From Octopus sinensis (taxonomy: Eukaryota): a stretch of 64,000 bases of DNA. A model generated the notes under the pieces. It saw only the letters and a list, made by a program, of their open reading frames with translations. It had not been told where the DNA came from and did not search any database. The stretch covers positions 40,920,001-40,984,000 of the forward strand of contig NC_043005.1 of the NCBI RefSeq assembly GCF_006345805.1, written 5' to 3'. How positions within the stretch are numbered: the first letter of the stretch is position 1; each line of letters opens with the position of its first letter. Both the position numbers and the translations under genes were made by a program. Shown here one piece after another: positions 4,162-30,706 of the stretch.

Positions 4162-5175
4162 CATATATATATACATACTTACATATATGTGTGTGTGTAT
4201 ATGTATGCATAGTATAAATTGATGTGGGCAGCTGGGCGCAGTATAAACTGTATAGGAAAAATTTAGTCGTCACTAATTGTGTCTGTATGTACTACATGCT
4301 TATATATTATATATATCATGTGGATATGCATGTGTATGTGTATGTGTATGTGTGTGTGTGCGTGCGTGTTTGAGTCCAATTTTACATGGCGAAATACTAA
4401 ACATCAGATACCCCACATTCATCGTGTCGATCTCTTCTTTGATTATTAAGTGTAACTAAAAGAGAAAGAAATATTTAGATGAAGAGGATTTGAAAAGCTA
4501 TAGCGTTTGTATTCTTTCGAAGAAGACTAACAACTGAAGAGATACTACATAGTAATATGTATCTGAAGTACTTCACAATTGTCTGAGCCAACTCAATAGA
4601 ATATTTGATCCATTACTACAGCATATTTAACACATGGACACATGCAAGAGGCTGTGCTGTTATCATTCTTCTGCCTTGTTAACTTTTCCAAACAAAGCAT
4701 CTTTAATGTGCACTAGCATATAAATATTCATACACACGTAAAGACAAAAAAGCACTAATGTTTGTACACTTGGAAAGACAAAAATACATGCACATATATA
4801 AATTCTTATACACATAAGAACAGTTGCATATACACTGACAAACACACAAACATCCATAGACATCATAAACATATGGTGTAAATATATGTACAGGCATACG
4901 ATGATTGATACATACTTAAAGAGAAACATATACATACGTGTTCATATATACATAAAGAGAACTAAAACATGGATGCTGACATTCATATACACAAAAACAC
5001 AAAAACATACACGCAGATAATCCTTTAGATATTAACTCATATAAACACATTAGCATTCATATGTATACATATGTATACACACATCTACATACATTTATAT
5101 ACAAATAGACACACCAAAACATAAACTTTCATACACATGTAAAATCCAATGCATACAGATTCATAGTCATTCATG

Positions 5176-5220
<45 letters not shown>

Positions 5221-5258
5221 CATCATGCACACACACACACACATACAAAACACATGCA

Positions 5259-5294
<36 letters not shown>

Positions 5295-8122: not shown

Positions 8123-8155
8123 CTTTATTTAAAGCAGAAGAAAATTCAACAAAAC

Positions 8156-8193
8156 CTGTTACTCTGAGTTTCCCGTTGCCGTTCATCAGACAG
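8156..8193 (-). ncRNA. Minimal type-I hammerhead ribozyme (canonical core)
   Basis: CTGT CTGATGA a CG gcaa CG g GAAAC TC a GA GTA ACAG: stem I CUGU/ACAG, GNRA-capped 2-bp stem II, stem III ACUC/GAGU, GUA cleavage triplet. Confidence 0.75.
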
Positions 8194-8209
8194 TTTTTGC
8201 TAGCAAAAA

Positions 8210-8247
8210 CTGTCCGATGAACGGCAACGGGAAACTCAGAGTAACAG
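8210..8247 (+). ncRNA. Minimal type-I hammerhead ribozyme (U4C core CCGAUGA)
   Basis: Mirror copy of 8156-8193 with CCGATGA core. Confidence 0.7.
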
Positions 8248-8572
8248 GTTTTGTTGAATTTTCTGCTGCTTTAAATAAAGCTTATTACTCTACCACTGGT
8301 ATTTGAGTACTCTTTTTTCCACCTTGTTTCACATTTATGTGTTTACTCCGGTATATATATATATATATATACATGTGTGTATTTTCTCTTGTTAACAATT
8401 AGCACGGAAAAAATATATAAGTAGTTACCAGGGTAGCAAAAAATACCACGAGTAAAAAAGTTGTAACTCCTTGTTTTTAAAGGTAGAAACTTCAGGTTTA
8501 CATGAAATATTTTGTATAATATATATAAATAAATAAATGGCGTTAAATGCAGGTGTTATTCAAATTCTTTTA

Positions 8573-14773: not shown

Positions 14774-15578
14774 GGGTACAACTTTAGCTGAGAATGCAGT
14801 ATTCAAAGTTGAGACAAAAGATTCTTGATTGTGTTACTGGATCAAAGTTAGAATTACCAAAATCAAGCAAAAGAAGCAGAATATATTGTGTATATTCAGT
14901 TTGTAGATGTTGGAAAGAAAAACTGGCTGATGCTATTAGTGTCTGAGGTAACAAAGAATGCCTTTATAGACGTAACAAAGTTGAGTGTTTTCATATATTG
15001 GAAATTCTGCCAGCATTATGAAATATCAACAAAAAGAGGTGCTATAAACATGCACCAAAAAAGGATTTTAGAAAAAGACAAAGTTATCATAAACTGGAAT
15101 ATGACAAGACGCACGAGATGGAGAGAGTAAAGCTAATCAACTTGACATTGTTGTGAAGGATCACAACAATTCCAACAGATGATAAAGTATACCAAAAAGT
15201 AATGAAAAATATCTAAATATAAAGATGTGGAAATAGGGATTATCAAAATGTGGGGACTGAAATAGGGACAGTCCTAATAATATTGTCATGAGTATGATTA
15301 AAGTGATGAAGGAAATCCATAACCAAAACTCCACGATTAACACATTTATACAACACATAGAAAATGGTTCTGTTACGTTTGGCATACATATTTTTAGAGT
15401 ACTTTTGATACATTAGGAAAATAAAATAATATACATTCCCATGATACACAGCCATGTATTTAGTAATGCTGCAAAGCATGCAAATAAGAATAGTAATAAG
15501 AATAGTAGTACAGTTCTATATTTAAGAGATGAGAAATTATGTACATTATTTACATTATTTACATTATTTATATTCGAC

Positions 15579-15866
15579 GGGCATATGGCGTAGTGGTTAA
15601 GAGCGCTGGTTACTAACCCCAAGATTCTGAGTTTGATTCCAAGCAGTGACCTGAACAATAGCAATGATATTATTAATAATAATAATAATAATAATAATGA
15701 TGATGATAATAATAATATCGAAAAATACCTTAGGAATGAGAACTCAGGTTCGAAATTTTCTCAAGACACCTGTAGAAGGCTGGAGGGTATATCAGCTGAA
15801 ACGTGTTAACAACAAACAAGATGAGGACAAATATCCGTTGAATGTTAATAATGTAAATGATGTAAA
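15579..15866 (+). mobile_element. tRNA-headed SINE (family E) with hammerhead-like 3' region
   Basis: A-box TGGCGTAGTGG, B-box-like GAGTTTGATTCC, (AAT)n linker, then gacac CTGTAGA a GGCTG..CAGCT GAAACGT and a (TGTAAATAA)n-like tail; second copy at 30361-30647. Confidence 0.8.
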
Positions 15867-15877
15867 CAAAGAATAGT

Positions 15878-16095
15878 AGTGTTTTCAAATTTTGGCATAA
15901 GACCAGCAACTCTATGGGGAGGGAAATAATTGATTCGATCAACCTCAGTGCTTAACTGGTACTTATTTTATCAACCCCGAAAGGATGAAAGGCAAAGTTG
16001 ATCTTGGTAGAATTTGAACTCAGAATGTCAAGCCGGATGAAATGCTGATAAGCATTTCACCCAGTGTGCTAACGTTTCCGCCAGCTCACTGCCTT
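15878..16095 (-). mobile_element. tRNA-derived SINE (family B)
   Basis: Minus strand aggcagtgagctggcggaaacgttagcac...gagttcaaattc...gcctttcatcctttcggggttgataaaataagtaccag. Confidence 0.85.
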
Positions 16096-16200
16096 CCATC
16101 CTATATTAATAATGAGTTTATGTATTTGCCACAAGGGCGAAGGATGAGGAGGACAATACAGAGACAGATATGATGAAATGATACAAAAAAATCTTTTTTT

Positions 16201-16421
16201 ACTCTTACTCTTACTCTTTACTCTTTTACTTGTTTCAGTCATTTGGCTGCGGCCATGCTGGAGCACCGCCTTTAGTCAAGCAAATCGACCCCGGGACTTA
16301 TTCTTTGTAAGCCCAGTACTTATTCTATCGGTCTCTTTTGCCGAACCGCTAAGTGACGGGGACGTAAACACACCAGCATCGGTTGTCAGGCAATGCTAGG
16401 GGGACAAACACAGACACACAA

Positions 16422-16460
<39 letters not shown>

Positions 16461-16631
16461 CATATATACGACAGGCTTCTTTCAGTTTCCGTCTACCAAA
16501 TCCACTCACAAGGCATTGGTCGGCCTGGGGCTATAGCAGAAGACACTTACCCAAGATGCCACGCAGTGGGACTGAACCCGGAACCATGTGGTTGGTTAGC
16601 AAGCTACTTACCACACAGCCACTCCTGTGCC
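16201..16631 (-). mobile_element. Full-length SINE family A
   Basis: Near-identical to 7411-7814. Confidence 0.9.
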
Positions 16632-16690
16632 TTTTAATAAATAAAATTAAATTAAAAAATTAAGTATACTACTTTTATTAAGGCAGTGAA

Positions 16691-28479: not shown

Positions 28480-30360
28480 GCATATGTATATGCATGTGTA
28501 AGTATTGTATGTGTCTCTGTGTGTATGTGTATTTGTTTATGTTTGCATTTTCCAAAAATCACTCAGCTAAAGGCTGTGACATTGCTGTTATTTTCCCTAG
28601 CAACAAGTCAGCTACTGACTCTGTGCCTTTGAAGACTTCTGGAATAAGATACCTCTTACTTGTACAACAGGTAAATGGTTTGTAACAGGAAGGACATCCA
28701 GCCATAAAACAATCCCTTAATAATATAGTCTATATTTGTCTAAACCATGACAGCATGAGAAAATGGATGGAAATGTGAACAGATGAACTAATAAATTTGA
28801 GCAAGGTCCCCTATCAGAGGGTAATTTCTTCCCTTCATTCCACTAGTCTTGAAGGCCCTGCAGAAAATCACAGATGTTGCCCTTTCACATTTCAATAAAT
28901 CATTAAAAGAAAACAAAATAAAAAGAAAAGTCTATTGATTTCTTTTTGTGGCCGGTAGAGAGTTATTTGTGTTGTGATATTCACATCATTTTTTAATTAA
29001 ATATATTGAATCAACATTCAAAATCAGAGAATAATCTTAGCCTCTTGCATATCAGTACACTGTACTGTTTATCAGTTAACACAACTCTCTTTTGACCAGT
29101 TAGAAGGCTGATATTAGGGGCAATAGGTTATGAATGGTTAGACATTCTCACTTTCAATCTAACGTACATTTATATTATTGACATCACAAGGGTAAAAGAG
29201 CAAAGTCAAAACCCACTGGCATTTGAACTCCATAGGCAGAAAGAAAAGGCTAAAGAACATAATGTATTTAACCTAATACTCTTTCTCCCTCCTCTCTCTC
29301 TCTCTCTCTCGTTCTCTTTCTGTCTCTCTCTCTCTCTCTGTCTCACTGACTTTCTCCCCCACCTCTCTCTCTATATATATATTAACCTATACACACATAC
29401 TATTTTTACATTTTTATTATCATCAAATACAAACAGCAGCTTACAGATTAAGATTAAAGACTTCCATTAAAAGTCTTGAAGAGAAAATCCTAACTTACTT
29501 TCTGTCTCTCTCTTCCTCTCACTCACTCACTCACTCTATTTCAGTTTCTCTTGCTCATTCACTCTCTCACTCACTCTTACTCTTTGTCCCTCTGTCGCTG
29601 CCTGCCTGTCTGTCTGTCTTTGCTCTTATCTCTTTTTTTTCTACCAACCTACTTCCCACTTCCCTCTTCCTCACTGTCCACTTCTAGCACAGAATCGAGG
29701 GCATTGATAACTCCGCCCTCACTCAACTCTTATCCACCTCCCAGGAATATTTGGAACTATTTCTTTGTTGGACTTGCTATAGAAGTACAAAAAGCAAGAA
29801 ATGTCAAAAGCTGACACAGTCCACTTGTAGAAAGGCCAATAGATATAGTTACAGTCGCTTAGGGGATGTAAGCTGATAACTCTCTTCCTGAAGTGGCTTT
29901 ACAGTAATGAAAAGATACACACCATACTATGGCATTTCTCGAGTAAAAGTTTAATGGCATATTTTGTATGGAAGGTCAAAGTGTAATGATTTAATGCTAC
30001 ACAGGTTACATTTTTGTGAAAGTAATCAAATAAAAGATATAACGTTTTATAGCATTTCATAGGCTTTTTGATGCACGTTTTGTTTGGCAGATCAAAGTAT
30101 AATAATGATACCAAGTTTTATGATGGCAGGTCTTTTGGCTATTTTATAAAACACATTCTGCTATCCATCTGCTACCCATGATGGCTGATAGCCAAGACTG
30201 ACAGAGTGCCATACCAAATAATTTTATATTATTCAGTTTTATCTTCCCAGTTGTGAGTTGATTTTTGCTTTACTTTCTTACTTTCTTATATTTCATTACG
30301 TACCTCATTTCTTTGGGTTTCATAAGACATGTCCTAACAATCTAAGAAAATAAGTTTGAT

Positions 30361-30706
30361 TACATTATTTACATTATTTACATCATTTACATTATTTACA
30401 ATTGCCGGATATTTGTCCTCATCTTGTTTGTTGTTAACACAATGTTTCAGCTGATATGCTCTCCAAGCATTCATCAGGTGTCTTGGGGAAATTTTGAACC
30501 TGGGTTCTCATTCGTAAGGTATTTTTTGATGTTATTATTATTATTATTATTATTATAATAATTATTATTATTAAGGTCACTGCCTGGAATCGAACTCAGA
30601 ATCTTGGGGTTAGTAGCCTGCACTCTTAACCACTACACCATATGCCCACGGGCATATGGCATAGTGGTTAAGAACGTGGGCTACTAAACCCCAAGAATCC
30701 AAGTTT
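30361..30706 (-). mobile_element. SINE family E (tRNA head plus hammerhead) with inverted duplication of the head
   Basis: Minus 30647-30361: gggcatatggtgtagtggttaagag...gagttcgattccaggcagtgacc-(AAT)n-...gacacctgatga...; plus 30650-30706 is an inverted partial copy of the head. Confidence 0.8.
30436..30482 (-). ncRNA. Minimal type-I hammerhead motif in SINE family E
   Basis: GACAC CTGATGA atgcttggagagcatatcagct GAAAC AT T GTGTT; stem I GACAC/GUGUU; GAAACAT is consistent with CpG decay of the GAAACGT seen in the 15798 copy. Confidence 0.6.

What the first reader, a model, noticed from the sequence alone, without database searches (positions are those of the whole stretch)
15542..15866. tRNA-headed SINE ending in a hammerhead and preceded by an inverted copy of its own tail
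Seen: Pol III A/B-box head, (AAT)n linker, hammerhead-like domain (15765-15807, degenerate here) and a (TGTAAATAA)-type tail. Immediately upstream of the head, 15542-15580 is the reverse complement of the tail (ccgtcgaat...taaataatgta). I saw no TSD, unlike neighbouring family B and C SINEs. Established: SINEs normally borrow a LINE 3' end; Schistosoma Sm-alpha is a precedent for a tRNA-related repeat with a hammerhead. Inference: this SINE is mobilised by a Penelope-like element rather than a LINE, with the ribozyme processing its Pol III transcript.
Basis: partly seen in the sequence, partly recalled or inferred. Interest (0 to 1): 0.85.

Follow-up and report, generated by a model that had tools for sequence, protein, structure and literature searches.

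The report
Penelope retrotransposon with a tRNA-derived head

Summary
The unit is real and common: 3,737 exact matches to its hammerhead 28-mer in the own genome. It is not shown to be an independent SINE. Head, (AAT)n, hammerhead and 'tail' form the terminal repeat (pLTR) of an 838-codon Penelope/Poseidon element; hammerhead and tail are its first codons.

Corrections: the inverted arm runs 15510-15580, and a 12-bp target-site duplication flanks the whole insertion (27 of 42 inverted pairs carry one; control 4 of 466).

In 38 of 42 pairs one end is long and one short, fitting two-site priming. The head best matches the genome's tRNA-Arg(TCT); 26 of 30 heads have no ORF end in front.

The element's sense strand has no run of four T in 2.65 kb (4.7 expected; related elements are enriched). 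This suggests Pol III transcription of an autonomous retrotransposon: inferred, and RNA reads gave no direct support. The predicted GUU cut triplet is lost recurrently (596 copies against 110 for a neighbouring repeat), a likely cleavage scar.

Ten literature searches found no such element described; Repbase, Dfam and the 1994 octopus SINE paper could not be checked. The scan noted one unrelated one-off SINE-Penelope join on other DNA.

The parts
15498..15509 (+). left target-site duplication (12 bp)
   Evidence: identical to 15869-15880
15510..15580 (-). inverted, 5'-truncated arm; ends at the distal priming site and so carries the 32-nt PLE tail extension
   Evidence: reverse complement matches the family 3' end; the same extension runs on into the ORF in 5' pLTRs
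15577..15580 (.). 4-nt microhomology (ACGG) shared by the inverted arm and the start of the direct arm
   Evidence: sequence; upstream letters of heads
15579..15655 (+). tRNA-Arg(TCT)-like head, A box 15586-15596, B box 15631-15640 (CpG decayed); putative Pol III promoter
   Evidence: best of 27 distinct own tRNA sequences, z about 9 against shuffles; not called by ARAGORN or Rfam
15656..15716 (+). (AAT)n linker of variable length
15736..15868 (+). first 44 codons of the PLE ORF (open in this copy), including the 9-nt repeats called 'tail'; the arm ends at the proximal priming site
   Evidence: translation; contiguous with the ORF in L046; conserved in P0002
15765..15807 (+). minimal type I hammerhead, degenerate: stem I 15765-15769/15803-15807, core 15770-15776, stem II 15778-15782/15793-15797; cut triplet GTT absent between 15802 and 15803
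   Evidence: pairing and core in 82 arms; exact counts
15869..15880 (+). right target-site duplication
30352..30706 (-). second family insertion in the window: full unit on the minus strand (30352-30647), head to head with a 59-bp head (30648-30706, +)

Best explanation
The feature is a solo terminal repeat of a Penelope/Poseidon-type retrotransposon that begins with a tRNA-Arg-like head, likely its RNA polymerase III promoter, and it was likely inserted by the element's own protein priming reverse transcription on both target strands at two fixed sites near the start of the RNA. Shown: one unit is head, (AAT)n, then an 838-codon ORF (RT plus C-terminal GIY-YIG-type region) whose first codons hold the hammerhead and the 9-nt repeats, then about 40 nt and the next head. 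Inferred steps: (1) the RNA starts within about 7 nt upstream of the tRNA +1; (2) the protein cuts both strands 12-13 nt apart in AT-rich DNA; (3) one strand primes at ATG+123 to +135 and the other at ATG+164, and the two cDNAs meet head to head by microhomology or fold-back; (4) priming in the first repeat of the RNA copies only about 290 nt back to its 5' end and yields the SINE-like unit, while priming in a downstream repeat yields ORF-bearing copies; (5) part of the RNA is cut by the hammerhead, and RT then stops there or jumps the gap, losing GTT.
For: Partner: an RT fragment beside one copy led to a family with 2,292 first-look candidates. Head and body follow the ORF end, or precede the ORF start, in the loci that reach those ends; L217 is a full tandem. 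The N-terminus encoded by body and tail aligns with an unrelated element, P0002 (49% over 377 aa); the C-terminal part aligns at 38% with the Anolis protein P0039. Ends: 38 of 42 inverted pairs are one long and one short, none long/long (about 21 expected if independent, my arithmetic). TSD score of 9 or more in 27 of 42 pairs and 32 of 79 insertions, mode 12-13 bp; control 4 of 466. Both arms share subfamily alleles (31 of 35 against 19.9; 33 of 38 against 24.6; 0 of 5,000 permutations). Step at the head: 2,447 exact head 25-mers against 770 for the 25-mer just upstream and 42 for an ORF 28-mer just past the tail; 26 of 30 position-ordered heads have no ORF end before them. Pol III: A and B boxes; no T4 run in 2,652 nt, 4.7 expected (shuffle P 0.007-0.026); 8 against 36.5 expected in 7 near-full copies; controls 607 against 408 in 80 related loci, none of 54 testable loci at zero, and a LINE of the same genome 2-3 against about 3. 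Cut scar: triplet lost in 596 against 3,737 intact, a true tandem AAC 8 nt away lost in 110; unlinked to subfamily and not shared within pairs (16 of 36 against 18.4); 5' ends cluster at the cut (11 of 69; 12 of 98, p 0.004). Published PLE anatomy and two-site initiation match (PMC8557442, PMC3846280, PMC11167929).
Against: No direct RNA evidence: two RNA-seq runs of a related organism lay equally on both strands, 59-64% of laid reads run on into unlike flanks, and no ends pile up at the head or the cut. In that call the summed DNA contig depth shows no clear step at the head (the tool says it is no copy number). G4 runs are also absent from the sense strand (P 0.03-0.3). A TATA-like motif 34 nt before the head would put a Pol II start at the same place. 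How an uncapped Pol III RNA would be translated is unexplained. The cut-site deletion is weaker in loci not chosen for it (9 of 108 against 3 of 108), and stems show no compensatory changes within this one family. Pfam did not call GIY-YIG on our fragments or on P0039. All ORF copies seen are decayed (about 5-12% from the majority line), so no active copy was found.
Confidence: 0.75

Rival explanations
1. Same element and insertion route, but transcription is by Pol II from the TATA-like motif at the end of the upstream unit; the tRNA head is a passenger left by an old SINE insertion into the terminal repeat.
For: TATA-like motif 34 nt before the head in tandem junctions; D. virilis Penelope has an internal LINE-like promoter (PMC2377424, abstract); mRNA needs a cap; no discrete Pol III RNA seen.
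Against: No T4 run over the whole unit, unlike 80 related loci and a LINE of the same genome; A and B boxes match consensus in the majority line.
Confidence: 0.35
2. One reading: solo units are a true SINE, transcribed on their own by Pol III and copied in trans by the PLE protein, and this made most copies.
For: Solo units far outnumber ORF-linked ones (5 of 49 and 4 of 30 have the ORF end upstream) and keep both boxes; three 9-nt units are commoner in solo arms (47 of 84 against 11 of 35).
Against: Among 92 variants tested none is enriched in solo arms among the 12 strongest shown; both subfamilies occur in both classes at like ratio and like divergence, 3.6-4.9%; common indels keep the reading frame; solo units end at the priming sites, whereas the Anolis element primes inside its template (PMC11167929).
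Confidence: 0.2
3. The recurrent 3-nt loss is ordinary slippage in a GT-rich stretch and says nothing about ribozyme cleavage.
For: The site has a 2-nt microhomology; only 9 of 108 against 3 of 108 in unselected loci; the Anolis study found no reads ending at the cut and cleavage dispensable (PMC11167929).
Against: 5.4 times commoner genome-wide than loss of a perfect AAC tandem next to it; seen with the CpG intact; 5' ends of truncated arms cluster at the same site.
Confidence: 0.3
4. A conventional LINE-dependent SINE, the inverted arm being a chance or one-off join.
For: tRNA head, short length, TSD and a repeated 3' motif look SINE-like; an earlier scan note on another genome found a one-off SINE-Penelope join (e1-7811937, not checked by me).
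Against: The 3' part is PLE coding sequence; inverted arms in 42 of 79 insertions with fixed two-site ends; the head-ORF join is shared by hundreds of loci.
Confidence: 0.02

Closest known systems
Poseidon of Anolis carolinensis (PAc; PMC11167929, parts 1-2 of 4 read)
   Same: Single ORF with RT and C-terminal endonuclease, hammerhead overlapping the ORF start, both strands cut and extended, two internal RT start sites that define the tail. P0039 (Anolis, 836 aa; that it is PAc is my inference) is 36-38% identical.
   Different: No tRNA head or Pol III promoter in the parts read; that paper saw no strand difference in start site in vitro, whereas here the two ends are nearly always one long and one short.
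Penelope elements of Adineta vaga (PMC3846280, passages) and general PLE anatomy (PMC8557442, passages)
   Same: [quoted passage not shown]
   Different: TATA/Inr-like promoter proposed there; here a tRNA-like head, 12-13 bp TSD and thousands of solo units.
Schistosoma Sm-alpha / Sj-alpha (passage in review PMC6765202; original not held)
   Same: Apparent Pol III promoter followed by a hammerhead.
   Different: Described as tandem SINE-like repeats released by cleavage; the passage names no autonomous element carrying the same promoter.
TRIMp3: Helenus, Ajax, Cassandra (PMC10886601, passages)
   Same: Small-RNA-derived Pol III promoter inside a terminal repeat.
   Different: Non-autonomous LTR elements; that paper argues their autonomous partners must use Pol II. 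Here the tRNA head is on the protein-coding element itself.
Non-LTR retrozymes (PMC7229834 passages; bioRxiv 10.64898/2026.07.22.740005 part 1 of 5) and MRC1-type non-autonomous Chlamys (PMC8557442 passage)
   Same: Short PLE-derived units; type I hammerhead in retrozymes.
   Different: Retrozymes are tandem arrays giving circular RNA; no tRNA head in the passages seen. Here units are mostly solo or inverted pairs.
Octopus tRNA-derived SINEs of Ohshima and Okada 1994 (only the citation seen; names OK, OR1, OR2 and their tRNA-Arg link are recalled)
   Same: The short unit may already be named as one of these.
   Different: Could not be compared: paper not held, search empty.

Membership tests
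EN+ Penelope-like element (Penelope/Poseidon) | Single ORF with PLE-type RT | tested here: met
   one open frame, 838 codons in the majority line; RVT_1; 257 homologs at E<=1e-20
EN+ Penelope-like element (Penelope/Poseidon) | C-terminal GIY-YIG endonuclease | tested here: met
   by alignment to the C-terminal part of P0039 and motif reading; Pfam did not call it, also not on P0039; no tree was built, so the clade rests on similarity
EN+ Penelope-like element (Penelope/Poseidon) | Partial tandems forming pLTRs | tested here: met
   L046, L217, L064, L077, L086
EN+ Penelope-like element (Penelope/Poseidon) | Inverted 5'-truncated arm and 30-40 nt tail at one end | tested here: met
   42 of 79 inverted; 38 of 42 one long and one short
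EN+ Penelope-like element (Penelope/Poseidon) | Minimal hammerhead in the pLTR | tested here: met
   core intact in 56 of 82 arms, stems I and II pair
Minimal type I hammerhead | Self-cleavage (as dimer or protein-assisted) | not testable with these tools
   only indirect genomic scars
tRNA-derived SINE | tRNA-related head with A and B boxes | tested here: met
   only the isotypes in 30 fetched tRNA loci were compared
tRNA-derived SINE | Transcription by Pol III | tested here: inconclusive
   T4 depletion for; RNA reads uninformative
tRNA-derived SINE | 3' end shared with a LINE partner | tested here: not met
   3' part is the 5' coding region of a PLE
tRNA-derived SINE | Propagates from its own source copies (own subfamilies) | tested here: inconclusive
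   no solo-enriched variant among the strongest of 92 tested in 283 arms, mild skew in 9-nt unit number
Non-LTR retrozyme | Head-to-tail arrays of hammerhead units giving circular RNA | tested here: not met
   direct tandems of the short unit seen in only a few of 79 insertions (L028, L132, L164, L169); circular RNA not tested

The most novel reading that the evidence does not exclude
An autonomous, protein-coding retrotransposon transcribed end to end (2.65 kb) by RNA polymerase III from a captured tRNA promoter, purged of Pol III terminators, whose internal two-site priming turns its own promoter unit into a SINE-like family, and whose copies record hammerhead cleavage in vivo.
Probability: 0.4. 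Interest if true: 0.9.

Novelty: new variant of a known kind. Interest (0 to 1): 0.74.

Why it matters
It shows a route to SINE-like families that needs no LINE: a Penelope element with a tRNA head sheds its own promoter unit. If Pol III really transcribes the coding element, it would break the working rule that autonomous retrotransposons use Pol II (or co-transcription) and raise the question of how such an RNA is translated. Thousands of copies also give a genomic read-out of open points in PLE biology: the asymmetric use of two priming sites on the two target strands, a 12-13 bp stagger, and whether the hammerhead cuts in vivo.

Tried and rejected
Rfam on the window returned microsatellite-driven microRNA hits among the 150 of 236 listed, and nothing relevant on L084. 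ARAGORN found nothing in the window. Folding z-scores were not significant. A search of the own genome with part of the Anolis protein, meant to find a second PLE family as control, returned mainly places already seen for this family; a LINE and 80 metagenome loci were used instead. Four of those 80 loci had an A/B box pair: two inspected lie apart from any pLTR, two lie about 2.4 kb upstream and were not inspected; many loci are cut short, so this is weak evidence that the head is lineage-specific. My first majority lines carried seed errors (frameshift; missing hammerhead loop; 'CC' missing before the head, which spoiled that call's automatic upstream labels, so I read them by eye and recounted). 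The automatic TSD finder misses copies with nested insertions or short inverted heads, so 32 of 79 is a lower bound; 2 of the 4 short/short pairs are scoring artefacts (L121, L158). L126 was dropped as the same insertion as L125; duplicate PLE loci were dropped before the majority line; L263/L264 look like one duplicated locus but were both counted in 26 of 30. The first 30 loci were biased to the deleted hammerhead by my query. RNA reads gave no start or end signal. Earlier scan notes: four of five look-ups were empty. Literature searches listed no paper on a tRNA-headed PLE; subscription journals, Repbase, Dfam and SINEBase were not searchable, and no supplements were read, where such a consensus could stand.

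Full report
Observation. The sequence at 15579-15868 holds a tRNA-like head, an (AAT)n linker, a degenerate minimal hammerhead and 9-nt repeats. The inverted arm is longer than reported, 15510-15580, and carries a 32-nt extension that the direct arm lacks. A perfect 12-bp duplication flanks the whole insertion. A second copy lies at 30352-30647, head to head with a 59-bp head. The own genome (2.72 Gb; probably an octopus, which is recalled from its repeats and size, not tested) has 3,737 exact matches to the intact hammerhead 28-mer and none to the reversed control. Only 15 of 82 unselected arms match even the central 14-mer, so I estimate 20,000 arms or more. DNA of five coded organisms holds most of the words of one copy.

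The partner. One of the first 30 loci had an RT fragment upstream. Searching with it gave a family of 2,292 first-look candidates. In those loci the complete unit, head included, follows the ORF end, and where the ORF start is present the unit precedes it and runs into it (full tandem L217). The majority line has one frame of 838 codons from an ATG inside the 'SINE body'. The window copy reads open in that frame. The encoded N-terminus, across hammerhead and 9-nt repeats, aligns with an unrelated element (49% over 377 aa), and the C-terminal part with an 836-aa Anolis protein (38%). Pfam called RT but not GIY-YIG, also not on the Anolis protein. So the unit is the pLTR of a Penelope/Poseidon-type element; the clade rests on similarity, not on a tree.

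Insertion anatomy. Of 79 insertions (30 best matches, 29 and 20 position-ordered), 42 have an inverted tail-side arm. 3' ends fall in two classes, ATG+123 to +135 and ATG+164, and 38 of 42 pairs have one of each, none two long ends. TSDs scored in 27 of 42 pairs and 32 of 79 insertions, mode 12-13 bp, 75% AT; mismatched flanks scored in 4 of 466. Two subfamily markers are linked (p 1.5e-11) and are shared by the arms of a pair far above permutation. This matches published PLE anatomy (PMC8557442 and PMC3846280, passages) and the two internal start sites of the Anolis element (PMC11167929, parts 1-2 of 4). I infer that the two target strands prime at different sites on RNA of one source.

Origin of the short units. 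Exact counts drop from 2,447 (head start) to 770 (25-mer just upstream), and a 28-mer just past the tail has 42. In position-ordered samples 4 of 30 heads and 5 of 49 units have the ORF end upstream; by eye the others begin within about 7 nt of the tRNA +1 or abut an inverted arm. This places the RNA 5' end at the head. Solo and ORF-linked arms share both subfamilies and divergence. Among 92 variants in 283 arms none of the 12 strongest is solo-enriched; three 9-nt units are somewhat commoner in solo arms. The simplest reading is that priming in the first repeat of the element's RNA yields the short unit as a by-product. Re-amplification from solo copies is not excluded.

The head and Pol III. 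The head has consensus A and B boxes and best matches the genome's tRNA-Arg(TCT) among 27 distinct tRNA sequences of a limited set of isotypes. The sense strand of the unit has no T4 run (4.7 expected; P 0.007 mononucleotide, 0.025-0.026 codon shuffles), and 7 near-full natural copies have 8 against 36.5 expected. Controls go the other way: 80 related loci have 607 against 408, none of the 54 with three or more expected has zero, and four copies of a young LINE of the same genome have 2-3 against about 3. Against: G4 runs are absent too; a TATA-like motif 34 nt before the head would give a Pol II start at the same place; and RNA-seq reads of a related organism look like passive read-through with no pile-up of ends. 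Pol III transcription of the whole element is therefore a supported hypothesis, about 0.4, not a result.

The ribozyme. The fold is the minimal type I form described for PLEs (PMC4209133, part 1 of 4 and passages): 5-bp stem I, bulged A, 5-6-bp stem II, palindromic ACGU; the core is intact in 56 of 82 arms. The window copy lacks the GTT that ends the predicted 5' cleavage product. That loss stands in 596 copies genome-wide against 110 for a perfect AAC tandem 8 nt away. It is unlinked to subfamily, and only 5 of 25 pairs with a deleted arm have both deleted, so it arises per arm. 5' ends of truncated arms cluster at the cut (11 of 69; 12 of 98). In loci not chosen for it the contrast is weaker (9 against 3 of 108). 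I read it as RT stopping at, or jumping, a self-cleaved RNA; slippage remains possible.

Novelty. PLE inverted ends, tail, TSD, hammerhead and solo pLTRs are known. Pol III promoters with hammerheads are known in Sm-alpha (review passage) and in terminal repeats of non-autonomous LTR elements (PMC10886601, passages). Ten searches listed no tRNA-headed PLE, and passages of an Octopus vulgaris repeat annotation (PMC13282606) list SINEs and Penelope elements apart. The short unit may already have a SINE name, since Repbase, Dfam, the 1994 paper and supplements were not seen. Verdict: new variant of a known kind, interest 0.74.

Noticed in passing
window 8130-8360: Inverted pair of a different repeat with a hammerhead-like core, set in (TA)n and T-rich on its sense strand; likely the pLTR of another PLE family (a similar pair in L053, another type in L039 at 3200).
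   Followed up: partly
tandem junctions, e.g. L217:3740-3690: The last ~20 nt before the head resemble the reverse complement of the head's first 20 nt, and the junction forms a small hairpin; head-to-head fold-back junctions at this point are frequent. It may be a relic of how the head was captured.
   Followed up: partly
L004, L007, L009, L011, L016, L020: The (AAT)n linker is often interrupted by other repeats, 6 of the first 30 loci.
   Followed up: no
L053:2775-3368, L221-L240: A young, very abundant LINE: 36,683 first-look candidates, 97-98% identical, open frames over 900 codons.
   Followed up: partly
window 15904-16660: At least two other SINE-like repeats follow directly on the insertion.
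   Followed up: no
L091, L092, L107: tRNA genes in local clusters: tRNA-Arg(TCT) copies about 1.3 kb apart, several tRNA-Cys in one 3-kb locus.
   Followed up: no
L275:69-414 and 4930-5274: A related PLE from a metagenome record with a 345-bp inverted repeat at both ends and an unrelated tRNA-like sequence at 2507-2581.
   Followed up: partly
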